A stretch of DNA of 64,000 bases from Betaproteobacteria bacterium (GCA_027490755.1 JAIXXL010000021.1:25675-89674), one strand, 5' to 3'. Counted from the stretch's first letter, positions 7,894 through 40,613 are shown. A program made the numbers and translations. The notes: generated from the letters alone by a model not told the origin.

Positions 7894-7920
7894 CCCGGCT
7901 TAAGTACAAAATCAAAGAAA

Positions 7921-7947: not shown

Positions 7948-8166
7948 ATCGGGGAATTGCCCTCAAGAAAAACTTTTCCAAGTTCGTCCGACACCTTAAA
8001 TCGGAGAGATTCGGGGGGCATTTCTCAGGAATGAATGGGCCGACGAAACTTGGCGGGTCATCCAGATTGAGAGGGCGTTAAATATAAATTATATATTGTA
8101 AATACAGGATTAGCATAAAAATAATAGCCCTTCGCGGAGACGTTCCTTTTTTAGGAGAAAAAAATC

Positions 8167-8883
8167 ATGGAACAAGCGATCGCGGTTCTATTTCCACTCC
8201 TGAGTGGTGCCCTAGTGGTGTACGGCTTTAATCGGCTCGATAGCTCTGTATATCAAGTTAAAGGCGTCGTTGGCCCCTATTTTGCTGCATTGGCTTTGTT
8301 ATTCGGGTTGTTTGCAAGCCTCACTGCGGGTGACGTTTGGCAAAGAGTCAGCAAAGCCAATGCACAAATCACCTCTGAAGCCAACGCGATGCGAACGCTC
8401 TTGCGAATCTCGCAAGCCATGGACAGATCGGATCTGCGCGTCGGCGACTTATTGCACGCTTATACTGACAGAGAAAATGCTACAGAAAAAACCATCGAGA
8501 ATACTGGTAGGGTTGATATTCAATCCACATCGGAAATCGAGGCTTTATTTAAAACAGCGATCGATCCGGCGAATTTTTCTAACAATGTGGTGCAGGCTGA
8601 ATTCTTGAAAGCCTTGGTTCAATTGCGCTCTGCCAGATTTGAACGGCTAGAGGCCAACAAAGCCCACCTGGCTATGTATAAGCTGGTTGTCCTGGGATTT
8701 TTCGGTGTGTTGACGCAAATTGCAATTGCATTATGCCACCCCGCTAACTACCGCGCACTGCTGTGTTCGGTCATGCTATTCAGCATTGCCTTTTCCTGCA
8801 CAATGGGCTTCGTCACGATGTTCGAGAACAATGAGATCTTCTCATCGCTTCTAAATTTAAATCAGTTTGAGGATATAAATTGA
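8167..8883 (+). CDS. Hypothetical membrane protein (DUF4239-like layout)
   Basis: 238-aa ORF in the AT-rich patch. It has two N-terminal and two C-terminal hydrophobic helices flanking a soluble helical middle, and 'aggagaaaaaaatc' RBS context. Confidence 0.55.
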   Translation: MEQAIAVLFPLLSGALVVYGFNRLDSSVYQVKGVVGPYFAALALLFGLFASLTAGDVWQRVSKANAQITSEANAMRTLLRISQAMDRSDLRVGDLLHAYTDRENATEKTIENTGRVDIQSTSEIEALFKTAIDPANFSNNVVQAEFLKALVQLRSARFERLEANKAHLAMYKLVVLGFFGVLTQIAIALCHPANYRALLCSVMLFSIAFSCTMGFVTMFENNEIFSSLLNLNQFEDIN

Positions 8884-8907
8884 TGGGGGCCAAGAGTGGC
8901 CTGCCCC

Positions 8908-9128
8908 TGACCTGACCCAGGATTTTCGGGCCAGTTGAAACTTGAGAGGATGGCTTCTGCCGATGAGGAGGGGCTTGTTGAGGAAGTCCCGGTTCAGTGA
9001 AGAGAGGATGGTTCGGACGTTGCGCGAGACTGTCCGAGTGCCGTTGAGCAAATGGGAGCATGCTCAACATCCTCGCCACGTCGCCCCAGGGTTTGGGTTG
9101 ACGTAAGTCTTTGTTGTTGATGGTGTTT
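8908..9128 (+). mobile_element. IS3-family (IS407-like) left-end remnant
   Basis: It starts with an IR-like 'tgacctgacccaggattttcggg...agttgaaact'. This is followed by a truncated orfA start encoding '(L)RKSRFSEERMVRTLRE', the characteristic MRKSRF(T/S)EEQ N-terminus. By eye it is roughly 80% identical over about 90 nt to the second remnant at 32881-32990 (opposite strand). Confidence 0.6.
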
Positions 9129-27922: not shown

Positions 27923-28078
27923 ATGCGCGACAAGATCAAGCTCGAATCGACCGCCGGCACCGGCCATTTCTACACCACCACCAAGAACAAGAAGACCACG
28001 CCGGACAAGCTCGAGATCAAGAAATTCGATCCGAAGGCTCGCAAGCACGTGACCTACAAGGAAACCAAGCTCAAGTAA
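27923..28078 (+). CDS. rpmG: 50S ribosomal protein L33
   Basis: Start at ATG 27923: '[37 protein letters not shown]'. Confidence 0.95.
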
Positions 28079-28160
28079 GGTCTGCCGTCACAGGGTTGGC
28101 TCAGGCCACCTCGGACCACTTGAAGCCGCCGCTCGGATGACCTCCGCGCTGGACAGAAAG

Positions 28161-28194
28161 GGCGTCGGGACAACAGTCCCGGCGCCTTTTTGTT
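28161..28194 (+). terminator. Rho-independent terminator after rpmG
   Basis: Hairpin 'ggcgtcgggacaacagtcccggcgcc' followed by 'tttttgttt'. Confidence 0.65.
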
Positions 28195-29245
28195 TGCCCG
28201 ACGCGGGGCCGGGGGCGTGATGCCGGCTCTGCCCGTCTGGCTTGTTCCGGCCATTGCCGCCGCGGTGCTGCTGCACCTGCTGGGCGATGTTCTGGTGCCG
28301 TTCGCCCTGGCCGGTGTGCTGGCCTACATCTTCGAGCCGCTGGTGCTCTGGCTGCACGCGCGCCGCGTCCCGCGTGGCGCGGCAGCGGCGCTGGTGCTGC
28401 TGCTTCTGGTGGCGCTGCTGGCCGGGCTGGTGCTGCTGATCCTGCCACTGCTGCTGGCGCAGACGGCCGCCCTTGCCGAGCGGGTGCCGCAGATGATCGC
28501 GCTGTTGCACGAGCGCCTGCCGGAGCTGCTGCACCACTACGGCATCGACGGCGATCCGGTGACCGACCTGCAGGGTCTGGCAAGACGTCACGCTGGTGAG
28601 GTGTCGGGCTGGCTGCGCAGCGGTCTGCTGCGCGCCGGGCAGGGTGGCGCGGCGCTGGCCGGCACGCTCGGCATGCTGGTGCTGTTCCCGGTGGTCCTGT
28701 TCTACGCCCTGCGCGACCTGCCAAGCATCGGCCCGGCGCTGCTCGGGCTGTGCCCGCCCAACATCCGCGGCACCGTGGCCACGCTGGCGGCCGATGCCGA
28801 CGCGGTGCTGGGCGAGTTCGTGCGCGGGCAACTGGCGGTGATGCTGACCATGGCGGTGGTCTACTCGGTCGCGCTCGGCCTGCTGAACGTGCCGCACGCG
28901 CTGTCGATCGGCGTGCTGGCCGGCATCCTCACCTTCGTGCCGATGCTGGGCGTGGTCGGTGGTGCGCTGCTCGCCCTGGGTGCGGCCGCTCTGCTGCCGG
29001 GCGAGCCGACGCCACTGTGGGCCATCGTGCTGCTGTTCGCCGGCGGCAACCTGCTGGAGAACTTTGTCGTGACGCCGTGGCTGGTGGGCGAGCGCATCGG
29101 CCTGCATCCACTCACGGTCATCTTCGCGCTGCTCGCCTTCGGGCAGCTGTTCGGCTTCAGCGGCGTGCTGGTGGCGCTGCCGGCGACCGCCGTGATGCAG
29201 GCCTGGCTGGCGCGCTGGCAAGCCACCCATGCGGGGGCCGGCTAG
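28190..29245 (+). CDS. AI-2E family transporter (PerM-like permease)
   Basis: 351-aa polytopic ORF, 'FVRGQLAVMLTMAVVYSVALGLLNVPHALSIGVLAGILTFVPMLG' and 'LENFVVTPWLVGERIGLHPL' are typical of the family. The start may be slightly downstream. Confidence 0.75.
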   Translation: MFARRGAGGVMPALPVWLVPAIAAAVLLHLLGDVLVPFALAGVLAYIFEPLVLWLHARRVPRGAAAALVLLLLVALLAGLVLLILPLLLAQTAALAERVPQMIALLHERLPELLHHYGIDGDPVTDLQGLARRHAGEVSGWLRSGLLRAGQGGAALAGTLGMLVLFPVVLFYALRDLPSIGPALLGLCPPNIRGTVATLAADADAVLGEFVRGQLAVMLTMAVVYSVALGLLNVPHALSIGVLAGILTFVPMLGVVGGALLALGAAALLPGEPTPLWAIVLLFAGGNLLENFVVTPWLVGERIGLHPLTVIFALLAFGQLFGFSGVLVALPATAVMQAWLARWQATHAGAG

Positions 29246-29787
29246 CCGCGCGGCGGTGTCCGTTCGATCTGGCCGACGTGCAGGCCAAAGTCACCGCCGC
29301 GGCGGTCCTCGAAGAAATGTTCGAGCGTGCGGCGGATGGTGCTGAAGGCCAGCTCGTCCCAGGGGATGTCGGCCTCGTCGAACAGAGCCACCTCAAGGCT
29401 CTCGACGCCGGCAGCGAAGACCGGCTCTGGCAGGGTGGCGCGGAACATCATGTAGATCTGGTTGGCGTGGACGATGCTCAGCACGGTGTAGAGCCCGTCG
29501 ATCTGCACTGTCGCGCCGGCCTCTTCCTGCGTCTCGCGCAAAGCCCCGTTCTCGAGTGTCTCGCCGCACTCCAGGAAGCCGGCCGGCAGGGTCCACTTGC
29601 CGTAGCGCGGCTCGATGGCGCGCCGGCACAGCAGCACCTGGTCGCCGATCACCGGCAGGCAGCCGACCACCACCTTCGGGTTGACGTAGTGGATCTCGCC
29701 GCAGGCGCTGCAGACATGGCGGGGCCGGTTGTCGTCATCCGGGATACGGAGGGCGACCGGCGCGGCGCATAGGGTGCAATAGTTCAA
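29242..29787 (-). CDS. NUDIX hydrolase with N-terminal zinc ribbon
   Basis: 'YCTLCAAPV...HVCSACGEIHYVNPK' followed by Nudix box 'GFLECGETLENGALRETQEEAGA'. Confidence 0.8.
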   Translation of the reverse strand: MNYCTLCAAPVALRIPDDDNRPRHVCSACGEIHYVNPKVVVGCLPVIGDQVLLCRRAIEPRYGKWTLPAGFLECGETLENGALRETQEEAGATVQIDGLYTVLSIVHANQIYMMFRATLPEPVFAAGVESLEVALFDEADIPWDELAFSTIRRTLEHFFEDRRGGDFGLHVGQIERTPPRG

Positions 29788-29924
29788 GAATCAGACCTCT
29801 TTCAGGGGCCAAGTTAGCAGAAAGCCATGTCGGCGGTAAGGCTAGAATGCGGGTCAATCGCCGGCCCGTGGGTCGGTCCCGCCAGACTGCTGGCTAGCCT
29901 CGATACGGTTCGTCCGCCCCTCGC

Positions 29925-31724
29925 GTGAGCAAGCCCCCGTCAGCCCCACCGGCGCCCGCCGCCAACTTCATCCGCAACATCATCGAGGCCGACCTCGCCG
30001 CCGGCGCTTATGCCGCGCGCCGCTGGTCGGGCAAGCCCGGCACCGCCGTGCAGCAGCAGGCCGGCGCGCCCGATCCGGCGAAGATCCGCACACGCTTTCC
30101 GCCCGAGCCCAATGGCTACCTGCACTACGGACACGCCAAGAGCATCTGCCTCAATTTTGGCTTGGCGCGCGACTTTGGCGGCGTGTGCCACATGCGCTTC
30201 GACGACACCAACCCCACCCGCGAGGAGCAGGAGTACGTCGACGGCATTCTGGAAGCGGTGCAGTGGCTCGGCTTCGGCTGGGACGCGTTCGGCGCCTCGC
30301 ACCAGTATTTCGCCAGCGACTACTTCGGCTGGCTCTACGAATTCGCCGAGAAGTTGATCGAGAGCGGTGCCGCCTACGTCGACAGCCAGAGCGCGGACGA
30401 GATGCGCACCCGCCGCGGCACGCTGACGCAGGTGGGCGAGGACTCGCCGTTCCGTGGCCGCAGCGTCGCCGAGAATCTGGACCTGTTCCGCCGCATGAAG
30501 GCTGGCGAGTTCGCCGATGGGGCGCACGTGCTGCGCCTCAAGATCGACATGCAGAGCCCCAACATCAACCTGCGCGACCCGGTGGCCTACCGCATCCGCC
30601 ACGCGCACCACCATCGTACGGGCGACGCCTGGTGCATCTACCCGATGTACGACTACACCCACGGTGTGTCGGACGCGCTGGAGAACGTGACCCACAGCAT
30701 CTGCACGCTCGAGTTCGAGGACCACCGCCCGCTCTACGACTGGCTCAACGAAAAGCTTGCCGCACTGGGTCTGCTCAACACGCCGCTGCCGCGCCAGTAC
30801 GAGTTCAGCCGCCTCAACCTGAGCTATGTCGTGCTCTCCAAACGCAAGCTGATCCAGCTGGTGGAGGAGGGCCATGTGGCCGGCTGGGACGACCCGCGCC
30901 TGCCGACGCTGGTGGGCGCGCGCCGACGCGGCTTTACGGCCGAGGGCTTCCGCCTGTTCGCCGACCGCATCGGCGTGAGCAAGTCCGACAGCTGGATCGA
31001 CATGAGCGTGCTCGAGGAGTGCATGCGCGAGCACCTCAACGAGGCCGCCGAGCGTCGCGTGGCGGTGCTCGACCCGCTCAAGCTGGTCATCACCAACTTT
31101 CCCGAGGGCGCGGTCGAGACCTGCCACGCGCCCAACCACCCGCTTCACCCCGAACTGGGCAAGCGCGACATGCCCTTCACACGTGAGCTGTGGATCGAGC
31201 GCGAGGACTTTCAGGAGGTGCCGGAGAAGGGCTTCCACCGCCTGTACCCGGGCAACACGGTGCGGTTGCGCTACGGGTTCGTGGTGACCTGCACCGGCTG
31301 CGAGAAGGATGCGGCCGGCAACGTGACCGCGGTGCACGCCGAGTACTTTGCCGATTCCAAGTCCGGCACCCCCGGTGCCGACAACTACAAGACCAAGGGC
31401 AACCTGCACTGGGTCTCGGTGGCGCATGCGTATGCGGCCACCGTGCGGCTGTATGACCGCCTGTTCGCGCACCCCAACCCGGGCGCGCGGCGTGAGGGCG
31501 ACGCGCCGGACGCGGAACGTGATTTCCTCGAGGACATCAACCCGGACTCGCTGCGTGTGATCAGCGCCCAGCTGGAGCCGTCACTGCGCGATGCCGCGCC
31601 CGAGCAGCGCTTTCAGTTCGAGCGGCATGGTTACTTCGTGGCCGACCGCCACGACAGCCAGCCGGGCGAGCCGGTGTTCAACCGGGCAGTGACGCTGAAG
31701 GACGGTTGGGCGCAACGCAGCTAG
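29925..31724 (+). CDS. glnS: Glutaminyl-tRNA synthetase
   Basis: GTG start. 'RFPPEPNGYLHYGHAKS' (HIGH region), 'VLSKRKL' (KMSKS-like), GlnRS-type C-terminal anticodon-binding region. Confidence 0.9.
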   Translation: MSKPPSAPPAPAANFIRNIIEADLAAGAYAARRWSGKPGTAVQQQAGAPDPAKIRTRFPPEPNGYLHYGHAKSICLNFGLARDFGGVCHMRFDDTNPTREEQEYVDGILEAVQWLGFGWDAFGASHQYFASDYFGWLYEFAEKLIESGAAYVDSQSADEMRTRRGTLTQVGEDSPFRGRSVAENLDLFRRMKAGEFADGAHVLRLKIDMQSPNINLRDPVAYRIRHAHHHRTGDAWCIYPMYDYTHGVSDALENVTHSICTLEFEDHRPLYDWLNEKLAALGLLNTPLPRQYEFSRLNLSYVVLSKRKLIQLVEEGHVAGWDDPRLPTLVGARRRGFTAEGFRLFADRIGVSKSDSWIDMSVLEECMREHLNEAAERRVAVLDPLKLVITNFPEGAVETCHAPNHPLHPELGKRDMPFTRELWIEREDFQEVPEKGFHRLYPGNTVRLRYGFVVTCTGCEKDAAGNVTAVHAEYFADSKSGTPGADNYKTKGNLHWVSVAHAYAATVRLYDRLFAHPNPGARREGDAPDAERDFLEDINPDSLRVISAQLEPSLRDAAPEQRFQFERHGYFVADRHDSQPGEPVFNRAVTLKDGWAQRS

Positions 31725-32098
31725 GGCGTATTCCAAGCCTGCCAGGCGGCGACCAGCAGCGCCAACCAGATGGCGGCGATCAGCACCGCACCGAGCATCA
31801 TGCGCGGCTTGGCGCGCCCGTCAGCCAGCCACTGCTCGGCCTGTGCGCGGCATTCGGCCATCACCCCGGCGGGCAGGGCGCGCGCCAGCAGGCCCACCGC
31901 CAGCGGCAGCAGCAGCGCCTCGTCCAGATAGCCGATCACCGGAATGAAGTCGGGGATGAGGTCGATCGGCGAGAGCGCGTAGGCCACCACCAGCAGCAGT
32001 CCGGCCTTGATCCAGGCCGGTGTGAGCGGGTGGCGGAGAGCGAACCAGAGCGCGAGGCCGTCGCGTTTGGCGGCGCGGATCCAGGTTTTGAGGTCCAT
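31721..32098 (-). CDS. YkvA/DUF1232 family membrane protein
   Basis: Start at ATG 32098. 'VAYALSPIDLIPDFIPVIGYLDEALLL' is the DUF1232 signature. Confidence 0.65.
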   Translation of the reverse strand: MDLKTWIRAAKRDGLALWFALRHPLTPAWIKAGLLLVVAYALSPIDLIPDFIPVIGYLDEALLLPLAVGLLARALPAGVMAECRAQAEQWLADGRAKPRMMLGAVLIAAIWLALLVAAWQAWNTP

Positions 32099-32258
32099 TG
32101 CGGCATTGTGCCGCAGCCTTGTCAGGCGCGCCCCGGGTGGGGCGGGTTGCGCCGGCATCCATCTGGAGCGGTTCAAGAAAATGGCCGCAGCGTTGACCGC
32201 AAGCAGCATTCGCCCCTACTGTTCGCAACGCTGCACCCCTTCATCCTGGAGACAAAGC

Positions 32259-32426
32259 ATGGACAAGTTGATGTACTACGCAGGCATCGGCGGCATGGTC
32301 GCCAGCATCTCGATCGTCACCTACCTGATCCTCCCGGCCTCCAGTTCGCCGGGCAAGCTTGTTGCCTGCCTTGGTATCGGTGTCGCTTTTTCTGCCCTGA
32401 CGATGCTCAACCGCGGCCGCGCCTGA
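32259..32426 (+). CDS. Small hypothetical membrane protein (55 aa)
   Basis: ATG 32259 after 'ctggagac'. The translation has two hydrophobic segments 'YYAGIGGMVASISIVTYLIL' and 'LVACLGIGVAFSALTML'. No homology assessed. Confidence 0.35.
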   Translation: MDKLMYYAGIGGMVASISIVTYLILPASSSPGKLVACLGIGVAFSALTMLNRGRA

Positions 32427-32529
32427 CCGCTCTCTTTGGTGGCACGGGGCCCGCCGCGCGCGGGCCTCTTTAATTTCTGGACGCCGACTTGACTCCGGAG
32501 GGGCCGGCCAGTACCCTCGCGACTCTCTT

Positions 32530-32605
32530 GGCTAGGTAGCTCAGTTGGTAGAGCATGCGATTGAAAATCGCAGTGTCGGCAGTTCGATTCTGCCCCTGGC
32601 CACCA
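32530..32605 (+). tRNA. tRNA-Phe (GAA)
   Basis: 'ggctaggtagctcagttggtagagcatgcgattGAAaatcgcagtgtcggcagttcgattctgcccctggccacca'. The acceptor, anticodon and T stems all pair. Confidence 0.92.
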
Positions 32606-32610
32606 GACAC

Positions 32611-32641
32611 CAACGCCCAACCCCAAACGGTTGGGCGTTTT
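32611..32641 (+). repeat. Terminator hairpin after tRNA-Phe; left copy of a 31-nt direct repeat
   Basis: 'caacgcccaaccccaaacggttgggcgtttt'. It matches 38004-38034 at 29 of 31 positions, and both differences fall in the hairpin loop. Confidence 0.8.
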
Positions 32642-32644
32642 CAT

Positions 32645-32990
32645 GTGTACTAGCCCCAGAAGCCGCGGCTTCGCGCCGGTTCTGGCTGCGTCGCAGGGGT
32701 CGACGCATACCCTACCGTGGGACCCGACGAGGACAGCAGCGCGCAGGCCCTTCGCTGTGACAGGCACCGCACCATTGCGTAACGGACCTGTTCGCGGCGA
32801 GCCGATGCGCTCACTGTTCTTTGCGGGCATCTCCTTCATCGCGTCGATCTCAAGATTCCGATCGACCAGCAACTTCTGCAGGCTTCTCTTCACCGAACCG
32901 CGACTTCCTCATCAGCCCCTCACTGATCGGAAGGAGCCATCATCTGAAGTTTCAACTGCGCCGAAAATCCCGGGGCAAGTTGGCACTGCA
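32645..32990 (-). mobile_element. IS3-family (IS407-like) remnant with internally deleted, frameshifted orfA/orfB start
   Basis: The minus strand reads an IR-like end, then 'MRKSRFGEE'. This is joined out of frame to '...LQKLLVDRNLEIDAMKEM' (orfA C-terminus). Another frame then gives 'RREQVRYAMVR.LSQRRACALL' (orfB N-terminus). No full transposase is present. Confidence 0.6.
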
Positions 32991-33037
32991 TCGCCGAGAA
33001 GTCAGGCACGTAAAGTAGTTTTACGGCGATACCTTGA

Positions 33038-33658
33038 TCAGCGTTTGGCATCAAAGCCGACATAGCGCCAGAAAACCAGCTTCAACTCAGAAATCGCTGC
33101 AGCAAGATCGAAGTCAGGTTGTATTTGGCTGCGGACGATCACTCCATCGAGCATGGTCGATGCCACCTGCGCAGCATTGTTGATATCTAAATCACCAAAA
33201 AGGCCTTGCGTGATGCCATCGTTCAGATATTTGACGAGGATATCCCTTTCGGTGCAATAAAATCGCTGGATCCCACTCTCAATCATGTCGCGCTGGGGAT
33301 GGGTTGCGGCGAAATCCAGCATTACCTTGACCATGTACCTGATCAGATCGGCTGACTCGATGTGATTATCAAACCAAGCCTCAATAAATTCGGGTGGAGT
33401 GGTGAGCCCCTTGCACATATCTTCATAGCGCGCGATCGCTATATCTGCGGCGTGGTCTAACGAAGCTCGAAATAGCGCTTCCTTGTTCTCAAAGTAATAG
33501 TAAATCAACGCGCTGTTAACCGGGATCGAGTTGGCAATGTCCTTGATGGTCACGGTATTGAAGTCATGTCGGGCGAAATGATAAAGCGCCGCATTCATAA
33601 GTTCGCCGGCTCGATCGGGTCGTTGGCGCATTTTGGTGGTGTTCCGTTCTTTCGGCAT
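33038..33658 (-). CDS. TetR/AcrR family transcriptional regulator
   Basis: Start at ATG 33658 ('MPKERNTTKMRQRPDRAGELMNAALYHFARHDFNTVTIKDIANSIPVNSALIYYYFENKEALF' is the TetR HTH). The gene is AT-rich relative to the backbone. Confidence 0.8.
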   Translation of the reverse strand: MPKERNTTKMRQRPDRAGELMNAALYHFARHDFNTVTIKDIANSIPVNSALIYYYFENKEALFRASLDHAADIAIARYEDMCKGLTTPPEFIEAWFDNHIESADLIRYMVKVMLDFAATHPQRDMIESGIQRFYCTERDILVKYLNDGITQGLFGDLDINNAAQVASTMLDGVIVRSQIQPDFDLAAAISELKLVFWRYVGFDAKR

Positions 33659-33932
33659 AAAACAATTAAAAATCCGGATTTTGCTAGCGAAATATACGAT
33701 ACAAAGCCCAAGGCCACACTGATCCATCTCCGCACCAGAGATGGGAAGGGGCCACTGCCCTGAGGCGATGTGGGCGTCGACCTGGAACTAGCGTGAGCAA
33801 CTTGACCTCGGGGTGCTTCCCGCGAGCAGGTGCAGCCGTGCGCGAATCCCGCCCCGCTCCGGGCGCATCACAAACGGTTCAGGGGGCATCGTCACTTGCA
33901 CCGCACGGCAACCGCGTGGATCTGCTTGTGCC

Positions 33933-33961
33933 TGATTTCAATCAGCAAATGAAAGTTCATT
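33933..33961. promoter_or_regulatory. Two adjacent inverted repeats, candidate TetR operator
   Basis: 'TGATT-tc-AATCA' (33933-33944) and 'AATGAA-ag-TTCATT' (33948-33961). They lie in the roughly 530-bp tetR/permease divergent spacer. Confidence 0.3.
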
Positions 33962-34189
33962 GACGGATTAAGTAATACATGTTGTGATTGGTCTATGGTG
34001 AAGTAGTAGTAGGCCCCAACCAGCACGACTTGGCATCATCAGGCAGCACCGATTGGCTCGACACATGATCGAGCACCGTAGGGAGCAACACAGAAGATGC
34101 TGCGCAGCTGCATGTACTGACCTGCGCTTTCCTGAAGGCCTCACAAATCGATGCCTGCGCCTTTTTGGTGGTGGGCTCAGGAGGTACAC

Positions 34190-35812
34190 ATGAGCATTGC
34201 CGAGTCGGCGGGCGCGTCCGCTTCTCCCCAGCCTCACACCCTCCAGCGCAGCCTTACGTGGGTTCACGCCTTCTGGTTTGCGGCGGGAACGCCCGCGCTT
34301 GTCCTGTTCTCGATCGGAGCGATCGCTGCCACGGTAGGCAACGTGTCGCCTTTGGTGTGGTTCCTTTCGATCAGCTTCGGGTTCCTGCAGTGCTTCACCT
34401 ATGCAGAGATCGCCAGCATGTACCCCCACAAATCGGGCGGTGCCTCTGTCTACGGCGCGATCGCGTGGGTCCGCTACGGCAAGTTGCTGGGACCGATCTC
34501 GGTGTGGTCCAACTGGTTCTCTTGGTCTCCAGTGCTTGCAATCGGGACGGGCTTGGGAGCCGGCTACATTCTTACCCTGCTTTTTCCGCCCGATGCGGCC
34601 GTACACACGTGGGAAGTAACGGTGCTGCCCCTGTCCTGGTTGGGAGAAGGGCTGAAATTGCGTATCAACGCGACTTTTTTACTGGGATGGTTCCTGGTGC
34701 TGCTGGTCTTCGCGATCCAGCACCGCGGTGCCCTGAAGGCAGCGCGCGCTCAGATGATCATGGCAGTGATCGCTCTTCTTCCGCTGCTTATCATCGGCAT
34801 CCTTCCTGTGCTTCGGGGCGATATTCCGGAAGCGCACTACACACCTTTCGTCCCGCTCGCCCATGACGAAAAGGGTGCACCCGTTTCTGGCATGTGGGAC
34901 ATCGCTGGCATCACCGTATTCGCCGGCGGCCTGTTCATCGCGGGTTGGTCCACCTACGCGTTCGAGACGGCCATCTGTTACACCCGCGAGTTCAAGGACC
35001 CCGCGCGCGATACCTTCCGCGCCATCTTCACTGCCGGCATGCTCTGCATGGCTGTCTTCACCTTGGTGCCTTTCGCCTTCCAGGGCGCCTTGGGCCTCGA
35101 CGGCATGCTGGACCCAGGTATCTACAGCGGCATGGGTGTGGCAAAGGCCATGGCAGGTATCGTCGGCGGTGGTGCATGGGTGGAGGACATCATCGTCATC
35201 CTGCTCATCGTCTCCCTGTTGCTGACCGTCAGCATGGCGATGGCGGGGTCCGCGCGCACCCTTTATCAGGGCTCGCTCGACGGGTGGCTGCCCAAGTACC
35301 TGTCGCATGTGAACGAGAACGGCGCGCCGACCGCGGCGATGTGGACCGATCTCTGCTTCAACATGTTGCTGCTGATGATGTCGGACTATGTGTTCTTGCT
35401 CGCGATCGCGAACGTGAACTACATGATCTTCATCTTCATGAACCTCCAGGCCGGCTGGCTTCACCGCATCGACCGTCCGCACACCCCGCGCCCTTATCGC
35501 GCGCCGAGCCTGCTGCTGGCGGTCGGCGCTCTGCTCGGCTTTGTGAACCTCTTCCTGATGGGCATGGGCGCCAACGTCTGGGGGCAGGGCACGCTGGGGG
35601 CTGGCATCATCGTGGCGGTCCTCATCATTCCTGTCTTCCTGTTCCGCCACTATGTTCAGGACAAGGGCAAGTTCCCGGCGCAGCTCGCCGAGGACATGCG
35701 TCCGGTGGGTGCCGATGAGGAGACTGTTGCACCCCGTGCCGGCGTGCTTCCCTATCTGGCGCTTGCAGCCGGCGGCGGCGCTGTCGTCTGCGGCTACCTT
35801 CTTTCAGCATGA
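34190..35812 (+). CDS. APC-superfamily amino acid/amine permease
   Basis: ATG 34190 after 'caggaggt'. The 540-aa ORF has about 12 hydrophobic segments, and 'FTYAEIASMYPHKSGGASVYG' matches the APC signature region. Confidence 0.8.
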   Translation: MSIAESAGASASPQPHTLQRSLTWVHAFWFAAGTPALVLFSIGAIAATVGNVSPLVWFLSISFGFLQCFTYAEIASMYPHKSGGASVYGAIAWVRYGKLLGPISVWSNWFSWSPVLAIGTGLGAGYILTLLFPPDAAVHTWEVTVLPLSWLGEGLKLRINATFLLGWFLVLLVFAIQHRGALKAARAQMIMAVIALLPLLIIGILPVLRGDIPEAHYTPFVPLAHDEKGAPVSGMWDIAGITVFAGGLFIAGWSTYAFETAICYTREFKDPARDTFRAIFTAGMLCMAVFTLVPFAFQGALGLDGMLDPGIYSGMGVAKAMAGIVGGGAWVEDIIVILLIVSLLLTVSMAMAGSARTLYQGSLDGWLPKYLSHVNENGAPTAAMWTDLCFNMLLLMMSDYVFLLAIANVNYMIFIFMNLQAGWLHRIDRPHTPRPYRAPSLLLAVGALLGFVNLFLMGMGANVWGQGTLGAGIIVAVLIIPVFLFRHYVQDKGKFPAQLAEDMRPVGADEETVAPRAGVLPYLALAAGGGAVVCGYLLSA

Positions 35813-36594
35813 GCGCCGCGATGAGGGGTAACGGCTCACCCGTCCGCTGGCAGGACCTCACCTGGGAACAGGTCGCGGCCTTGAGGGACAGCGGAATAGA
35901 CCTTGCCATCCTGCCGGTAGGGGCCACAGAACAGCACGCGCTTCATCTGCCCTTGGGCGTCGATACGCTCTCTGCGGTGGCCGTGGCGGAAGGTGTTTCG
36001 GCGCGCACCGGGTTCCCTGTGCTGCCCGCCATCCCGGTAGGGTGCTCGCTGGGCCACAGCAAGCACTGGCCTGGAACACTCTCGCTGCGGCCCGAGACGC
36101 TCGCTCGCGTGGTCTACGAGATCGCCGAATGGGTCGAGGCCGCGGGCTTCCAGCGTCTGGTCATCCTCAATGGGCACGTCACCAACTGGGCGCCGCTGCG
36201 TTGTGCGCTTGAGAATGTGCGGGCCGATTTTCCCGAAGTGCGCATCGCATTGCGCTCCATCTGGGAGATCACTCGCGAGATCGGGGAGGTCTATTTCAGC
36301 GACGGCGGGACCAATTTCCACGCCAACACGGCGGAAACGTCGCTGATGCTGCACCTTCACCCAGAGCTCGTCGACATGGACAAGGCCACGGCCGAGCCGG
36401 ACCGCTCTACATGCTGCTTCTTTTCCTACACGGTGAACAAGGAGAGTGTCCACGGCGGTTGCGGCGACCCGACCGGTGCCACTGCCGAGGACGGTGCGGC
36501 GTTACTCGCAAAATGTGTCGAGGAATTCTCGATTCAACTGGTCAAGGCTCAAGCCGAACGCAACCCCCTGGAGGAGATGCCTCCACCTGGTTGA
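35809..36594 (+). CDS. Creatininase-family amidohydrolase
   Basis: 'AILPVGATEQHALHLPLGVD' and 'ILNGHVTNW...' are creatininase-fold metal-binding blocks. The start overlaps the permease stop (atga). Confidence 0.8.
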   Translation: MSAAMRGNGSPVRWQDLTWEQVAALRDSGIDLAILPVGATEQHALHLPLGVDTLSAVAVAEGVSARTGFPVLPAIPVGCSLGHSKHWPGTLSLRPETLARVVYEIAEWVEAAGFQRLVILNGHVTNWAPLRCALENVRADFPEVRIALRSIWEITREIGEVYFSDGGTNFHANTAETSLMLHLHPELVDMDKATAEPDRSTCCFFSYTVNKESVHGGCGDPTGATAEDGAALLAKCVEEFSIQLVKAQAERNPLEEMPPPG

Positions 36595-36624
36595 ATCACC
36601 CCCGACGAACGCAAGGAGAACACA

Positions 36625-37986
36625 TTGGAAAAGTCCAACAATCCCGAGTTGGTAAAGCTCAGGGAGCAACTCACCGCCAAGGGCGTGAAGCACCTGTTTG
36701 CCAGCTATGTCGACATGCATGGCGTATCGAAGAGCAAGGTGGTGCCGATCGCGCACTTCGATCGCATGATGACGGGCTCCGAACTCTGCACGGGCGCGGC
36801 TCTGGAAGGCGTCCCGCAGGACGTCAGCGACGAAGAGGTGGCGGCCCACCCCGATCCCGCATCGTGCATGGTGCTGCCGTGGCAGCGCGACACGGCGTGG
36901 TTCGCCAGCGATCTGTGGTGCGAGGGCAAGCCCTTCGAGCCCTGCAGCCGCAACATCCTCGGCCGCCAGATGAAGAGGGCCAGCGACATGGGCTTCACCT
37001 TCAACCTGGGGATCGAGGCCGAATTCTTTGTCCTGAAGGACGACCCGGTGCATGGCTTCGTCCCCATGTCGGATCGCAAGCACCTGGAGAAGCCCGCCTA
37101 CGACGTCTCGCGCATGCTGGACAACATGGGCTGGATGAGCGAACTCGTCGCGGCCATGAACGAACTCGGCCTCGATGTCTATTCTTTCGACCACGAGGAC
37201 GGCATCGGCCAGTTCGAGGTGGACTTCAACTACTTCAACGCGCTCGCGATGTCGGATCGCTTCGTGCTGCTCCGCCTCATGGCACATGAGATCGCGAGAA
37301 AGCACGGCGGCTTTGCCACCTTCATGCCCAAGCCGTATGGTGACCGGGCCGGGAGCGGCGCTCATTTCAACATGTCGCTCGCCGACTCGAAGACCGGCAA
37401 GAACCTGTTCGCCGACGACAACGACCCGCGCAAGCTCGGCATCTCCAAGCTTGCCTATCAGTTCATCGGCGGTGTTCTGCGGCACCTGCCGGCGATCTGC
37501 GCCGTTGTCGCGCCGACGGTGAATAGTTACAAGCGACTCATCCTCAAGGGAAGCATGTCCGGCTTCACCTGGGCGCCAGTGTGGGCCTGCTACGGCAACA
37601 ACAACCGGACCAATACCGTGCGTATCCCGCGCGGAGGCGGCCGTGTGGAATTGCGCGCCGCAGACAGCGCCTGCAACCCCTATCTGGGCGCAGCCTTGAC
37701 CCTGGCAGCCGGCCTGGAGGGCATCGAGCAGGGGATCGACCCCGGCGATCCGCATCTTGAGAACATGTATCTGAAGTCGGATAAGGAGCTGAAGAAGCTG
37801 GGCGTCAAGCGCCTGCCCAAGACGCTGGAAGAAGCGGTGAATGCCTTCGAGGCCGATCCGCTGGCCGAGCAGGTCTTCGGCAAGAAGATGCGTGACACCT
37901 GGATCGACTTCAAGCGCGACGAGTGGCTCAGCTACCTCAACCACGTATCAGACTGGGAACGCGCCCGTTACCTGAAATTCTTCTGA
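36625..37986 (+). CDS. Glutamine synthetase family protein (gamma-glutamyl ligase-like)
   Basis: 453 aa, 'FASYVDMHGVSKSKVVP', 'NLGIEAEFFV', 'FMPKPYGDRAGSGAHFNMSL' and 'NNRTNTVRIP' are GS type I-like catalytic blocks. TTG start. Confidence 0.85.
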   Translation: MEKSNNPELVKLREQLTAKGVKHLFASYVDMHGVSKSKVVPIAHFDRMMTGSELCTGAALEGVPQDVSDEEVAAHPDPASCMVLPWQRDTAWFASDLWCEGKPFEPCSRNILGRQMKRASDMGFTFNLGIEAEFFVLKDDPVHGFVPMSDRKHLEKPAYDVSRMLDNMGWMSELVAAMNELGLDVYSFDHEDGIGQFEVDFNYFNALAMSDRFVLLRLMAHEIARKHGGFATFMPKPYGDRAGSGAHFNMSLADSKTGKNLFADDNDPRKLGISKLAYQFIGGVLRHLPAICAVVAPTVNSYKRLILKGSMSGFTWAPVWACYGNNNRTNTVRIPRGGGRVELRAADSACNPYLGAALTLAAGLEGIEQGIDPGDPHLENMYLKSDKELKKLGVKRLPKTLEEAVNAFEADPLAEQVFGKKMRDTWIDFKRDEWLSYLNHVSDWERARYLKFF

Positions 37987-38003
37987 TCGCCTCGAGCTGG
38001 CGA

Positions 38004-38035
38004 CAACGCCCAACCCTGAACGGTTGGGCGTTTTT
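38004..38035 (+). repeat. Terminator hairpin; right copy of the 31-nt direct repeat
   Basis: 'caacgcccaaccctgaacggttgggcgttttt', a near-identical copy of 32611-32641. Confidence 0.8.
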
Positions 38036-38213
38036 ATTTTGGCGCGTACAGCGGTGCTGCAATGCAGCCGCTCGTCACAAAGATTTCGCTTGCTTTGTGC
38101 GGCGCAACGTGAGATTTTCGTATATAAATCAGATAGATATAGATTCAGTATAAACCGGGGGGGGGGTAACCTGATCTCAGGTCGCCCACGCCCAAACATT
38201 CCGGGGTCCCGAC

Positions 38214-38588
38214 ATGGCGACTAAGATCTGCGACACCGAATACCCGGGCTTGCAGCTCGAGGCGCAACTCTGCTTCAAGCTGTATTCCGCGTACTCGCGC
38301 TTCTTTGGCCGTTTCGATCGGCTTCTGCGCGCGCACAACCTGAACTTCACCGAGTACATCATCCTGCTGACGGTGTGGGACGAAGGCCCGGTCGAGGCGA
38401 CCTTGGAAAGTCTCGAACTGCGCCCCACACTCAACAGTGCGCGGCCGGGTTTTCTCTGCGATTCCGGCTTGCCCGAGGCCGACTGGAAGATGCTGGGTGC
38501 GCAACTCGACAAGATGTCCGATGCGCTCGCGCAGATCGGGCTGGAGGGTTTTGATTTCGCCGCCTCGGCAGTCCGGCGAGACACCTGA
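38214..38588 (+). CDS. MarR/OhrR-like protein, apparently internally shortened
   Basis: N-terminus '[19 protein letters not shown]...[18 protein letters not shown]' resembles OhrR, including the reactive-Cys context. The ORF is only 124 aa, and the recognition-helix/wing segment seems to be missing. Confidence 0.5.
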
Positions 38589-38670
38589 CCGACACCTTGC
38601 GACCGCGCCGGACGTGCGGTCCGGCGGTATGGCTCGCGTACAATCGGGCATCGCCAGACAGGGCCCTGAG

Positions 38671-39237
38671 ATGAGCATCAAGTCCGACAAGTGGATCCGC
38701 CGCATGGCGGAGCAGCACGGCCTTATCGAGCCGTTCGAGCCGTCCCTGGTGCGCGAGGTCGACGGCCGCAAGGTGGTGAGCTATGGCACCAGCAGCTACG
38801 GGTACGACATCCGCTGCGCGCCTGATTTTCGCGTGTTCACCAACATCAACTCGACCATCGTCGACCCGAAGAACTTCGACCCGGACAGCTTCGTCGAGAT
38901 GCACGGGGAGAGCTGCATCATCCCACCCAACTCGTTCGCCCTGGCGCGCACCGTGGAGTACTTCCGCATCCCGCGCAATGTCCTCACCATCTGCCTCGGC
39001 AAGAGCACCTACGCGCGTTGCGGCATCATCGTCAACGTCACGCCCTTCGAGCCGGAGTGGGAGGGCTATGTGACGCTCGAGTTCTCCAACACCACGCCGC
39101 TGCCGGCCCGCATCTATGCCGGGGAGGGCTGTGCTCAGGTCATCTTCTTCGAGTCCGACGAGGTCTGCGAGACCAGTTACAAGGACCGTGGCGGCAAGTA
39201 CCAGGGCCAGACCGGCGTCACGCTGCCGAAGATCTGA
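38671..39237 (+). CDS. dcd: dCTP deaminase
   Basis: Start at ATG 38671: '[24 protein letters not shown]...[14 protein letters not shown]...[33 protein letters not shown]'. Confidence 0.92.
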
Positions 39238-39245
39238 GGGGCGGC

Positions 39246-40613
39246 GTGGCGCGCCCCAAGACCCTCCACACCTGCACCGAGTGCGGTGCGTCCTCGTCCA
39301 AGTGGCAGGGCCAGTGCCCCGGCTGCGGGCTCTGGAACACCCTGGTCGAGACGGTCGCCGAGCCAGCCTCGGGCACCCGCTTCGTTCCGGTCGCCGGTGA
39401 GGCCGGCGGCGCCCGCGTCGTCACGCTGGCCAGCGTCGATGCGCGCGAGGAAGCCCGCACCCCGACCGGCATCGACGAACTCGACCGCGTGCTCGGCGGC
39501 GGCATCGTCCGCGGTGGCGTGGTGCTGCTCGGCGGAGACCCCGGCATCGGCAAGTCGACCCTGCTCATGCAGGCCGGCGCCCGCGTCGCCGCGGTGGCGT
39601 CGGTGCTCTACGTTTCCGGGGAGGAATCGGCGCAGCAGATCGCGCTGCGCGCGCAGCGCCTGCAGGTCGATGCCGAGCGGCTGCACCTGCTCACCGAGAT
39701 CCGGCTCGAATCCATCCTCGCCCACCTGCAGGAGCGCAAGCCGGCGCTGGCGGTGATCGATTCGATCCAGACCGTCTACTCGGACGCGCTCACCTCCGCA
39801 CCCGGTTCGGTGGCGCAGGTGCGCGAATGCGCCGCGCAACTGACCCGCTACGCCAAGCAGTCGGGCACCGCCATCGTACTGGTGGGGCACGTGACCAAGG
39901 AGGGCGCGCTGGCCGGGCCGCGTGTGCTCGAGCACATCGTCGACACGGTGCTCTACTTCGAGGGCGATACGCACAGCAGCTATCGCCTCGTCCGCGCCAT
40001 CAAGAACCGCTTCGGCGCCGCCAACGAGCTCGGCGTGTTCGGCATGACCGAGCGCGGCCTCAAGCCCATCAGCAACCCCTCGGCGCTGTTCCTCGCCGGG
40101 CACGCCAAGCCGGTGCCGGGCACCTCGGTGCTGGCGACGCTAGAGGGTACGCGCCCGCTGCTTATCGAGCTGCAGGCGCTGGTCGACACCGCATACGGCT
40201 CCGCGCCGCGCCGCGTCTCGGTGGGCCTGGAGAACAACCGCCTTGCCCTGCTGCTGGCGGTGCTGCACCGCCACGCCGGCATCGCTACCGGCGACCAGGA
40301 GGTCTACATCAACGCGGTCGGCGGCATGCGTGTCTCCGAGCCCGCCGCCGACCTGCCGGTGCTGCTGGCGATCGTCTCCTCGCTCAAGAACCGGCCGCTG
40401 CCGGCGGGGCTGATCGCTTTTGGCGAGGTCGGTCTTGCCGGCGAGGTTCGGCCCGTGCAGCGCGGCCAAGACCGCCTGCGCGAGGCGGCCAAGCTCGGCT
40501 TCAGCCGTGCGCTGTTGCCGAAAGCGAACGTCGCCAAGCCGGCCGTGCCTGGCATAGAGGCGATCGGCGTGGAGCGCCTCGAGGACGCATTGGAGGCTGC
40601 ATGGCGCAACTAG
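39246..40613 (+). CDS. radA: DNA repair protein RadA
   Basis: GTG 39246. Zinc finger 'CTECGASSSKWQGQCPGCGLWNT', Walker A 'LGGDPGIGKSTLLMQ', 'KNRFG' motif, Lon-like C-terminus. Confidence 0.92.
   Translation: MARPKTLHTCTECGASSSKWQGQCPGCGLWNTLVETVAEPASGTRFVPVAGEAGGARVVTLASVDAREEARTPTGIDELDRVLGGGIVRGGVVLLGGDPGIGKSTLLMQAGARVAAVASVLYVSGEESAQQIALRAQRLQVDAERLHLLTEIRLESILAHLQERKPALAVIDSIQTVYSDALTSAPGSVAQVRECAAQLTRYAKQSGTAIVLVGHVTKEGALAGPRVLEHIVDTVLYFEGDTHSSYRLVRAIKNRFGAANELGVFGMTERGLKPISNPSALFLAGHAKPVPGTSVLATLEGTRPLLIELQALVDTAYGSAPRRVSVGLENNRLALLLAVLHRHAGIATGDQEVYINAVGGMRVSEPAADLPVLLAIVSSLKNRPLPAGLIAFGEVGLAGEVRPVQRGQDRLREAAKLGFSRALLPKANVAKPAVPGIEAIGVERLEDALEAAWRN

What the first reader, a model, noticed from the sequence alone, without database searches (positions are those of the whole stretch)
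32530..38035. 5.4-kb islet after tRNA-Phe flanked by a duplicated terminator hairpin (29/31 nt identical)
'caacgcccaaccc[ca/tg]aacggttgggcgtttt' occurs 5 nt after tRNA-Phe (32611-32641) and again right after the glutamine-synthetase-like gene (38004-38034). The only two differences are in the hairpin loop. Between the copies lie an IS3 remnant, an AT-rich tetR and a four-gene metabolic module of intermediate G+C. The duplication looks like a target or att duplication created when the islet inserted just downstream of the tRNA.
Basis: seen in the sequence. Interest (0 to 1): 0.6.

Follow-up and report, generated by a model that had tools for sequence, protein, structure and literature searches.

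The report
Acquired methylamine islet beside tRNA-Phe terminator
A 5.4-kb block of acquired methylated-amine uptake genes sits in a much-rearranged slot just after a tRNA gene, bracketed by two copies of that tRNA's terminator hairpin; this is an ordinary decayed genomic islet, and because the hairpin is a widely shared terminator type, the repeat alone does not prove how the islet inserted.

Summary
The repeat is real. A 34-nt direct repeat lies at 32611-32644 and 38004-38037 (31/34 identical). Each copy has an 11-bp stem, a 6-nt loop and a T-tract. The differences are two loop bases and one tail base. The host is an uncultured Rhodocyclaceae bacterium. Five non-conspecific relatives lack the interval, and two of them show tRNA-Phe, one hairpin, then dcd, so the islet is a lineage-specific insertion in a hypervariable slot. 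Its content is a 342-bp gutted IS3-family element, a BetI-like TetR, a TMAO-type permease, a creatininase-family protein and a type III glutamine synthetase (GmaS-like). That is three cargo genes plus a regulator, not four. No integrase is present. The hairpin is not a REP. It belongs to a conserved trailer-terminator family found after tRNA-Phe, tRNA-Ala(CGC), tmRNA and 5S rRNA in over 100 proteobacterial species. Eleven of 85 unrelated family members match copy 1 as well as copy 2 does, so identity alone does not prove an in-situ duplication. The best reading is a Campbell-type crossover between the resident hairpin and a like hairpin on incoming DNA, followed by decay. It is att-like, not a transposon target duplication. 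A second foreign piece, an OhrR/MarR remnant, follows copy 2. This is an ordinary kind of feature of modest interest.

The parts
29925..31724 (+). glnS (glutaminyl-tRNA synthetase), conserved left flank
   Evidence: Pfam tRNA-synt_1c plus C-terminal domains. Used to identify the organism and its relatives.
31721..32209 (-). DUF1232 gene, conserved flank
   Evidence: Called with PF06803 in the conspecific contig L121 and in all relatives.
32259..32426 (+). Conserved 55-aa small ORF (MDKLMYYAGIGGM...) with its own terminator at 32446-32468
   Evidence: Called in L121 and in L125-L127, L138 and L139. Terminator from the scan.
32530..32605 (+). tRNA-Phe (GAA), intact
   Evidence: ARAGORN. Rfam tRNA, 69.7 bits. 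Identical to the L125 tRNA.
32611..32644 (+). Hairpin copy 1: the tRNA-Phe trailer terminator (stem 32612-32622 / 32629-32639, loop CCAAAC, tail TTTTCA)
   Evidence: The left flank GACAC matches the native GACCC spacer of L125, L127 and L138.
32644..32985 (-). Internally deleted IS3-family insertion sequence remnant. It has an IRL-like end at about 32935-32985, an orfA start at 32905, an orfA C-terminus and orfB N-terminus at 32674-32881, and a possible IRR (TGTGTACTAGCCCC) abutting the T-tail of hairpin 1.
   Evidence: 73% nt identity to an annotated IS3-family transposase on Burkholderia glumae plasmids. tblastn matches orfA residues 65-86 and orfB residues 2-48. There is no flanking 3-4-bp duplication (read from the sequence).
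33038..33727 (-). TetR/BetI-like repressor (G+C about 0.49); start codon uncertain (186-229 aa)
   Evidence: Pfam TetR_N and TetR_C_6. Weak NCBIfam BetI match. Linked to the same cargo in other contigs.
34151..35812 (+). APC-family permease, equivalog of the trimethylamine N-oxide permease
   Evidence: NCBIfam NF053774, 844.5 bits against a cut-off of 690. Pfam AA_permease_2.
35809..36594 (+). Creatininase-family amidohydrolase, specificity unknown
   Evidence: Pfam PF02633, E = 8e-66. Below every NCBIfam equivalog cut-off.
36625..37986 (+). Type III glutamate-ammonia ligase (GmaS-like, gamma-glutamylmethylamide-synthetase type)
   Evidence: NCBIfam TIGR03105, 535 bits against a cut-off of 469.6. 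Closest named homologues are from Parvibaculaceae (83%) and Hyphomicrobium (77-78%), one of which its source names 'glutamate--methylamine ligase'.
38004..38037 (+). Hairpin copy 2 (loop CTGAAC, tail TTTTTAT), which serves as terminator of the cargo operon
   Evidence: It is not part of the cargo in other organisms, where homology stops at the GS stop codon, 37987.
38038..38079 (+). 42-nt spacer after hairpin 2, possibly resident intergenic DNA
   Evidence: The start (TTTTATTTTGG) resembles the native flanks in L125 and L138. Weak similarity to the native L127 spacer (p about 0.03) and none to L125.
38080..38600 (+). Separate foreign unit: a decayed OhrR/MarR-family gene (ORF 38214-38588, with a roughly 43-aa in-frame deletion of the winged helix) and its promoter region, which contains a G10 tract at 38157-38166
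   Evidence: The only homologue outside this species among 5.8 billion proteins is the full-length 167-aa P0242 (53% identity; OhrR match, E = 1e-13). Its upstream region is homologous from about window 38080. Absent from L125-L127, L138 and L139.
38637..39237 (+). Resumption of conserved DNA: dcd promoter (cgtacaat) and dcd (38671-39237)
   Evidence: The blastn alignment with L125 and L127 resumes at 38633-38637. Pfam DCD.

Best explanation
The interval is a decayed, lineage-specific genomic islet in a hypervariable slot between the tRNA-Phe terminator and dcd of an uncultured Rhodocyclaceae bacterium.

Its cargo is a repressor-controlled operon for uptake and gamma-glutamylation of a methylated amine: a BetI-like TetR, a TMAO-type permease, a creatininase-family amidohydrolase and a type III glutamine synthetase (GmaS-like).

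The repeated element is the intrinsic terminator that trails tRNA-Phe. It belongs to an old, structurally conserved family of stable-RNA trailer hairpins.

The two copies most likely arose when incoming, probably circular, DNA carrying a like hairpin recombined with the resident hairpin in a single Campbell-type crossover. That crossover could have been catalysed by a recombinase since lost or acting in trans, or by RecA over about 30 bp. The result is a hybrid left copy (native spacer, foreign TTTTCA tail, then an IS3 element) and a hybrid right copy (cargo, then the native-like TTTTTAT tail).

The right copy now terminates the cargo operon and insulates dcd. IS3-associated deletions and a separate OhrR/MarR remnant record later decay or further insertions at the same spot.

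Shown: the insertion, the anatomy, the terminator character and the family membership. Inferred: the crossover mechanism and the order of events.
For: - Insertion. blastn against L125 (GlnRS 98%) aligns window 28000-32644 and 38637-39242; 32645-38636 is absent. L127 is also empty.
- Hot spot. The same slot holds a Fic remnant in L126, a 1-kb MscS gene in L138 and phage-like genes in L139.
- Population. Conspecific contigs from other metagenome samples (L121-L124, plus one place listed without DNA) carry islet genes in the same order. L121 and L122 span both hairpins, with the same three differences between the copies.
- Foreign cargo. G+C is 0.49-0.65 against 0.67-0.74 in the flanks. The nearest named GS homologues are alphaproteobacterial. 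The same tetR-permease-creatininase-GS block sits in unrelated contexts in L128-L133, and L134-L135 carry a version without the creatininase gene. In all of these, and for the GS gene alone in L150, homology ends at the GS stop codon.
- Terminator. Stable folds with U-tracts. Among relatives' trailers, 3 of 11 stem pairs change on both sides and 95.5% of cells stay paired.
- Flanks. The spacer left of copy 1 (GACAC) is native-like. The tail and first flank bases of copy 2 (TTTTTATTTTGG) match L125 and L138, whereas the tail of copy 1 (TTTTCA) does not. This is the pattern expected from a crossover between two non-identical hairpins.
- Position of copy 2. Copy 2 plus 42 nt lies between two unrelated foreign units. 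That is most simply explained if it is the resident trailer.
- Precedent. In L039 a Fic gene is bracketed by two [tRNA 3' fragment + spacer + hairpin] repeats.
Against: - There is no integrase, and no tRNA fragment next to copy 2.
- The repeat starts 5 nt after the tRNA, unlike classical tRNA att sites.
- 31/34 identity is no higher than between copy 1 and 11 unrelated family members, so copy 2 need not derive from this locus.
- The 42 nt after copy 2 are only weakly native-like (p about 0.03 against L127, 0.5 against L125).
- No relative was found with tRNA-Phe, hairpin and the OhrR/MarR unit but without the islet.
- The tail difference is a single base.
- Thirty base pairs is near the lower limit for RecA-dependent recombination (established knowledge).
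Confidence: 0.5

Rival explanations
1. No duplication happened at this locus. Copy 2 is an independent member of the trailer-hairpin family that arrived on foreign DNA, for example as the terminator already attached to the GS gene or taken from another stable-RNA trailer. The whole 32645-38636 block was then placed after the resident hairpin by IS3-mediated or illegitimate recombination, replacing about 39 nt of native spacer.
For: Relative to L125 the indel is 32645-38636, with copy 2 lying 600 bp inside its right edge. Unrelated family members are as similar to copy 1 as copy 2 is, and 12% of family pairs reach 31/34 or more. The differences lie in the loop and tail, as they do between independent members. 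The left junction is an IS3-family end with no target duplication. L138 and L126 show that replacement-type events occur at the same boundaries.
Against: In every other context found, the cargo lacks this hairpin, and the OhrR/MarR unit in L151 lacks it too. Among proteobacteria nearly all family members trail stable-RNA genes or fragments of them, so a copy behind a protein-coding gene needs a rearrangement anyway. The tail and first flank bases of copy 2 look native.
Confidence: 0.27
2. The repeat is a true target-site duplication. A transposase-like or casposase-like enzyme cut the two strands on opposite sides of the hairpin, about 33-34 bp apart, and gap repair duplicated the whole terminator. 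The three differences arose later.
For: The repeat boundaries coincide with the base of the hairpin plus its tail, and both outer flanks look native. Three changes at unconstrained positions are compatible with an insertion soon after the split from L125, which is about 8% diverged at the nucleotide level.
Against: No bacterial transposon family that I know of makes a 33-34-bp duplication. The only transposase trace is IS3-family, which makes 3-4 bp (established knowledge). No enzyme gene is present. The copies are not identical, and the tail of copy 1 departs from the native form.
Confidence: 0.07
3. The resident hairpin was first duplicated in tandem by slippage, or existed as a double terminator as seen after rrn operons. 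The islet then landed between the two copies.
For: Tandem pairs of family hairpins 50-250 nt apart occur after 5S rRNA in L041, L048, L084 and L119.
Against: No relative shows a doubled hairpin after tRNA-Phe. This needs two independent events at one spot. The islet edges fall exactly at the repeat ends.
Confidence: 0.08
4. The 31-mer is a REP-like dispersed intergenic repeat, and its presence on both sides of the islet is incidental.
Against: There are only two copies in 64 kb, even with relaxed matching. The rest of this genome could not be scanned.
Confidence: 0.03

Closest known systems
tRNA-adjacent genomic islands and integrative elements with attL/attR direct repeats (P4-type integrase islands)
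   Same: It lies immediately downstream of a tRNA gene. It has atypical G+C and accessory metabolic cargo. It is absent from close relatives, flanked by a direct repeat, and sits in a locus used repeatedly by other insertions.
   Different: There is no integrase. The repeat does not include the tRNA 3' end but starts 5 nt after it and consists of the terminator. The islet is small (5.4 kb), and a further foreign remnant lies beyond the right repeat.
CIMEs (cis-mobilizable elements): decayed islands that keep att repeats but have lost their recombination and transfer genes, as described for Streptococcus thermophilus ICESt-type elements (from my own knowledge)
   Same: The cargo is bracketed by att-like repeats with no mobility genes. 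The arrangement is compatible with tandem accretion at one site (islet, then the OhrR/MarR remnant).
   Different: No cognate ICE or integrase that recognises this hairpin is known. The repeats are a generic terminator family, not a demonstrated recombination site.
Tn4371-family ICEs (attB TTTT[C/T][A/G]T; PMC2789088)
   Same: Both repeat copies end in TTTTCAT or TTTTTAT, matching the published 7-8-bp att consensus. These ICEs are found in Beta- and Gammaproteobacteria.
   Different: No ICE backbone (int, trb, traG) is in the islet. The motif is simply the U-tract of a terminator. A Tn4371-type event would duplicate 8 bp, not 34.
IS3-family insertion sequences, including hairpin-targeting members such as IS1397 and ISKpn1 (from my own knowledge)
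   Same: An IS3-family remnant abuts the terminator. A second fragment of the same element lies beside the tRNA-His cluster at 8910-9005.
   Different: IS1397-type elements insert into the loop of the palindrome with a 3-4-bp duplication. Here the hairpin is intact, the IS sits after the T-tail, and there is no short duplication.
GmaS / N-methylglutamate-pathway and TMAO-utilisation clusters of methylotrophs such as Methylocella and Hyphomicrobium (the pathway is from my own knowledge)
   Same: It has an equivalog-level TMAO permease and a type III glutamine synthetase of the GmaS type.
   Different: No mgsABC, mgdABCD, tdm or tmm genes are in the islet. A creatininase-family enzyme takes their place, so the substrate is not established.

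Membership tests
Intrinsic (Rho-independent) terminator | G+C-rich stem-loop followed by a U-tract at the 3' end of a transcription unit | tested here: met
   Both copies have an 11-bp stem, a 6-nt loop, a T4-5 tract and a fold of -20 to -22 kcal/mol (z -3.4 to -4.4). One follows tRNA-Phe and the other follows the GS gene. The stem is maintained by compensatory changes in relatives. Termination itself was not assayed.
tRNA-targeting integrase-mediated genomic island | Tyrosine or serine recombinase gene inside the element | tested here: not met
   Pfam scans of the ORFs screened in 32631-38199 found only TetR, permease, creatininase and GS domains. The only mobility trace is a gutted IS3 element.
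tRNA-targeting integrase-mediated genomic island | Direct repeats that contain the 3' part of the tRNA gene | tested here: not met
   The repeat begins 5 nt after the tRNA. The 17 nt before copy 2 show no significant similarity to the tRNA-Phe 3' end (p = 0.2-0.34).
tRNA-targeting integrase-mediated genomic island | Next to a tRNA gene, atypical composition, absent from close relatives | tested here: met
CIME-like decayed island | att repeats retained, recombination and transfer genes lost, and a cognate element able to act on the repeats | tested here: inconclusive
   The first two features fit. No cognate recombinase could be sought in the rest of the genome, and whether the hairpin is a recombination site is untested.
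IS3-family transposition product or composite transposon | IS copies at both ends and/or a 3-4-bp target duplication | tested here: not met
   There is a single remnant, at the left end only. The flanking bases (TCA / CTG) are not a duplication.
REP/BIME-type dispersed palindromes | Many copies per genome scattered in intergenic regions | tested here: not met
   There are two copies in 64 kb. Only four assemblies contributed two loci, and 82% of hits lie at stable-RNA 3' ends or fragments of them. The whole source genome was not available.
Tn4371-family ICE | attB/attL/attR TTTT[C/T][A/G]T together with int and a Ti/RP4-like transfer backbone | tested here: not met
   The att-like motif is present in both tails. 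No backbone genes are in the interval.
TMAO permease (NCBIfam NF053774) | Score above the curated equivalog cut-off | tested here: met
   844.5 bits against a cut-off of 690, full length.
Type III glutamate-ammonia ligase (TIGR03105; GmaS-type) | Score above the curated equivalog cut-off | tested here: met
   535.2 bits against a cut-off of 469.6. The substrate (ammonia or methylamine) cannot be tested here.

The most novel reading that the evidence does not exclude
The trailer hairpin may be more than a terminator. Its 11-6-11 palindrome (fixed arms, free 6-nt centre) has the layout of a tyrosine-recombinase core site. The same arms recur after tRNA-Phe, tRNA-Ala(CGC), tRNA-Pro, tmRNA and 5S rRNA in over 100 Beta- and Gammaproteobacteria, often next to small integrase-less cassettes (Fic, toxin-antitoxin). 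It could be a sequence-specific landing pad used in trans by an unrecognised recombinase. On that reading the islet is a cassette bracketed by two such sites, loosely analogous to pdif modules.
Probability: 0.07. Interest if true: 0.7.

Novelty: new member of a known kind. Interest (0 to 1): 0.3.

Why it matters
The locus shows how a small metabolic module for methylated-amine uptake and gamma-glutamylation became fixed in an uncultured Rhodocyclaceae lineage at a tRNA-adjacent hot spot. It also shows that the terminator of a stable-RNA gene, not the tRNA body, can mark the boundary of repeated insertions. There is a practical lesson for genome scans: a perfect-stem repeat flanking an islet can be two members of a conserved terminator family, so repeat identity alone should not be read as an att or target duplication. 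The wide conservation of one particular stem behind several kinds of stable-RNA gene is the only part that might merit a dedicated look.

Tried and rejected
- REP hypothesis. I scanned the window with up to 3 mismatches and with relaxed arms and found only two copies. The genome-collection scan showed a stable-RNA-associated family, not a dispersed repeat.
- Known RNA family. Rfam gave only tRNA hits. A sub-threshold match of copy 2 to 'Betaproteobacteria toxic sRNA' (22 bits against a gathering score of 50, E = 0.59) reflects terminator resemblance only.
- Eroded tRNA-Phe 3' fragment before copy 2. Not significant.
- Native origin of the 42 nt after copy 2. Weak support only.
- A relative with the OhrR/MarR unit but no islet. 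The metagenome scan and the protein search found only the same species and one 53%-identical full-length homologue in another context.
- Plasmid origin of the cargo. Only about 67-70% nt matches to the permease gene on megaplasmids and chromids.
- Hairpin duplication at the other relatives' insertions (L126, L138, L139). None within the DNA available.
- Prophage att hypothesis. IMG/VR contigs contain the hairpin beside tRNA-Phe, tRNA-Ala or partial tRNA ends. The neighbouring conserved 319-aa and 465-aa ORFs (the latter scanned as a 411-aa protein) have no Pfam domain, and no integrase was seen next to the hairpin.
- Literature search for the hairpin sequence. Only unrelated primer hits.
- Name or accession of the source assembly. 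Not recoverable.
Full report
**1. The observation**

The repeat exists at the stated coordinates.
- Copy 1, CAACGCCCAACCCCAAACGGTTGGGCGTTTTCAT, is at 32611-32644. It starts 5 nt (GACAC) after tRNA-Phe(GAA), which is at 32530-32605.
- Copy 2, CAACGCCCAACCCTGAACGGTTGGGCGTTTTTAT, is at 38004-38037. It starts 17 nt after the stop codon of the glutamine-synthetase-like gene.
- The repeat finder extends the match to 34 nt (31/34), with two differences in the 6-nt loop and one in the T-tail.
- The stem pattern occurs twice in the window, even with three mismatches or relaxed arms, and never in 100 shuffles.
- Both copies fold into an 11-bp stem followed by a U-tract, at -21.7 and -19.8 kcal/mol.

**2. 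Anatomy, left to right**

- Conserved flank: glnS, a DUF1232 gene, a conserved 55-aa ORF with its own terminator, tRNA-Phe, then hairpin 1.
- 32644-32985: a 342-bp IS3-family remnant on the minus strand. It keeps an IRL-like end, the orfA start (MRKSRF...), the orfA C-terminus and 47 residues of orfB. It is 73% identical to an annotated IS3 transposase on Burkholderia glumae plasmids. A possible IRR abuts the T-tail, and there is no 3-4-bp duplication.
- 33038-33727 (-): a BetI-like TetR with G+C 0.49.
- 34151-35812: an APC permease that scores as an equivalog of the TMAO permease (844 bits against a cut-off of 690).
- 35809-36594: a creatininase-family protein that falls below every equivalog cut-off.
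- 36625-37986: a type III glutamate-ammonia ligase (535 bits against 469.6). Its nearest named relatives are from Parvibaculaceae and Hyphomicrobium, and one of them is named 'glutamate--methylamine ligase' by its source.
- Hairpin 2, then 42 nt, then from about 38080 a separate unit: an OhrR/MarR-family gene with a roughly 43-aa in-frame deletion. Its only homologue outside this species among 5.8 billion proteins is a full-length 167-aa protein in a different context.
- Homology to relatives resumes at 38637, in the dcd promoter.

No integrase is present.

**3. Organism and relatives**

GlnRS places the window in an uncultured Rhodocyclaceae lineage. Conspecific metagenome contigs (L121-L124, 99.2-100% nt identity) carry islet genes in the same order. 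L121 and L122 span both hairpins, with the same three differences between the copies.

Five non-conspecific relatives all lack the islet.

| Locus | GlnRS identity | What follows tRNA-Phe |
|---|---|---|
| L125 | 98% | One hairpin, about 80 nt, then dcd |
| L127 | 92% | One hairpin, about 80 nt, then dcd |
| L126 | 93% | A replaced trailer, then a Fic remnant |
| L138 | 94% | The native spacer and hairpin, then a 1-kb MscS gene |
| L139 | 93% | A replaced trailer, then phage-like genes |

The slot directly after the tRNA-Phe terminator is thus a hot spot for insertion and replacement. Relative to L125, however, the extra DNA is 32645-38636, so copy 2 lies 600 bp inside the right edge of the indel.

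**4. What the hairpin is**

The census was:

| Context | Loci |
|---|---|
| About 8 nt after tRNA-Phe(GAA) | 37 |
| After tRNA-Ala(CGC) | 20 |
| After tRNA-Pro(GGG), all Cardiobacterium | 3 |
| After tmRNA | 2 |
| After 5S rRNA | 17 |
| After a bare CCA-end fragment (a displaced native trailer) | 18 |
| Other; most are outside the Beta-/Gammaproteobacteria and look like chance matches | 22 |

- Only four assemblies contributed two loci. It is therefore not a REP. It is a conserved family of stable-RNA trailer terminators.
- Within the Rhodocyclaceae relatives the stem drifts by compensatory change: 3 of 11 pairs changed on both sides and 95.5% of cells stayed paired. That is the behaviour of a terminator under structural selection.
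- The decisive control concerns identity. Among 85 family members with a 6-nt loop, 11 from unrelated species are 31/34 identical to copy 1, exactly as copy 2 is, and 12% of all family pairs reach that level.
- The flanking CA and TTTTCAT are family consensus.

**5. Origin of the cargo**

- The tetR-permease-creatininase-GS block occurs in other metagenome contigs (GS 86% aa identity, about 77% nt) in unrelated surroundings.
- A variant without the creatininase gene occurs in a Parvibaculaceae MAG.
- A GS gene 93% identical at the protein level sits in a contig of roughly 50% G+C and is followed directly by a convergent GATase gene.
- In all of these, homology to the window stops at the GS stop codon (37987). 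Where tetR is on the contig, homology starts within a few tens of bases of the tetR stop. A different terminator, or none, follows.
- Hairpin 2 is thus not part of the cargo elsewhere. It is not part of the OhrR/MarR unit in L151 either.
- No close plasmid copy exists in PLSDB.

**6. Mechanism**

Shown: the insertion, the mosaic structure, the terminator nature of both copies, and the absence of mobility genes.

Inferred: how copy 2 arose. Several points favour a crossover at the hairpin.
- The spacer left of copy 1 (GACAC) matches the native GACCC of relatives.
- The tail and first flank bases of copy 2 (TTTTTATTTTGG) match L125 and L138, while the tail of copy 1 (TTTTCA, then the IS end) does not. 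This hybrid pattern is what a single crossover between a resident hairpin and a slightly different incoming one would leave.
- The 93-bp piece holding copy 2 lies between two unrelated foreign units. That is most simply explained if it is resident DNA with one insertion on each side.
- Its 42-nt tail is weakly similar to the native L127 spacer (p about 0.03), but not to L125.
- In proteobacteria nearly all family members trail stable-RNA genes or fragments of them. A copy behind a protein-coding gene therefore implies a rearrangement at a trailer.
- L039 gives a precedent: a Fic gene is bracketed by two [tRNA fragment + spacer + hairpin] repeats.

A 34-bp transposon target duplication is unlikely. 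The only transposase trace is IS3-family, which makes 3-4 bp, and the copies are not identical.

The main rival is that copy 2 came in on the foreign block as an independent family member, and the block replaced about 39 nt of native spacer. This cannot be excluded. I give it about 0.27, against 0.5 for the crossover model.

**7. Comparison with known systems**

- The locus works like a tRNA-adjacent genomic island that has decayed to a CIME-like state: att-like repeats and cargo, but no recombinase.
- It fails two defining tests of a classical tRNA island. It has no integrase, and its repeats contain no tRNA 3' end.
- The tails TTTTCAT and TTTTTAT match the published attB consensus of Tn4371-family ICEs (PMC2789088). 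There is no ICE backbone, and the motif is simply a U-tract.
- It is not an IS3 composite transposon and not a REP.

**8. Verdict**

The kind of feature is known, and this is a new member of it. Interest is modest (0.3). The one unusual element is the breadth of conservation of this particular stem behind several kinds of stable-RNA gene. I only partly followed that up, and my exact-stem search inflates its apparent invariance.

Noticed in passing
Loci L002-L120 (genome contigs) and L141-L149 (IMG/VR): The same 10-11-bp stem (ACGCCCAACC / GGTTGGGCGT) with variable 6-nt loops trails tRNA-Phe(GAA), tRNA-Ala(CGC), tRNA-Pro(GGG), tmRNA and 5S rRNA in more than 100 Beta- and Gammaproteobacterial species. 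In some genomes an identical spacer, hairpin and tail follows two different tRNAs (L033 and L077). No Rfam family and no literature hit was found. The exact-stem search biases the picture towards invariance.
   Followed up: partly
L056, L061, L096, L022, L020, L098 and others; L126:8616-9400: In many loci the hairpin is followed by a conserved stretch of about 60 nt (TTTCATTTCCGGGTTCCGCGACACCACGCGGGGTTCGG...). In L061 and L039, and as a remnant in L126, a Fic-family gene follows. The same block occurs after either tRNA-Phe or tRNA-Ala.
   Followed up: partly
L047:2050-3300 and L039:3040-4700: Small integrase-less cassettes sit exactly at tRNA 3' ends. In L047 a 1.1-kb two-gene cassette that looks from its sequence like a RelE-type toxin with an HTH antitoxin (not scanned) lies between tRNA-Ala...CCACCA and a repeated CACCACCA followed by the displaced native trailer. 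In L039 a Fic gene is bracketed by two [tRNA 3' fragment + spacer + hairpin] repeats.
   Followed up: partly
Window 39237-39250, compared with L125:13484-14243, L126:10043-10670 and L127:6989-7693: The dcd-radA junction is a second hypervariable slot. Relatives carry different toxin-antitoxin pairs there (an unnamed 83-aa ORF plus PIN in L125, BrnT/BrnA in L126, SymE-like/PemK in L127). The window has none.
   Followed up: no
Window 7000-9005: A second low-G+C islet (0.47-0.49; a bestrophin-like protein at 8167-8883 and a small ORF at 7438-7893) lies just downstream of the tRNA-His/Arg/Pro cluster. It is bounded at 8910-9005 by a fragment 84.5% identical to the IRL/orfA-start part of the IS3 remnant in the tRNA-Phe islet. 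The topology is the same in both places: tRNA, then IS interior, then IRL, then AT-rich cargo.
   Followed up: partly
Window 38157-38166: A G10 homopolymer lies in the promoter region of the decayed OhrR/MarR gene and is conserved (also as a G10 run) upstream of the full-length homologue in L151. Two contigs from one metagenome sample (ERZ28593140) break beside it: L122 ends at 38149 and L001 starts at 38168.
   Followed up: no
Window 32636-32644 and 38029-38037: The T-tails plus CAT/TAT of both hairpins match the published Tn4371-family ICE attB consensus TTTT[C/T][A/G]T (PMC2789088). This may be why such terminators are frequent ICE landing sites, or it may be coincidence.
   Followed up: partly
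Window 32259-32426: A 55-aa ORF (MDKLMYYAGIGGMV..., probably a small membrane protein) with its own terminator is conserved between the DUF1232 gene and tRNA-Phe in every relative examined. It has no Pfam family.
   Followed up: no
L144, L146, L148 and L057, downstream of the hairpin: A conserved pair of ORFs (about 319 aa, cysteine-rich, and about 465 aa) lies next to the trailer hairpin in predicted prophage or island contigs, after either tRNA-Phe or tRNA-Ala. Neither has a Pfam domain.
   Followed up: partly
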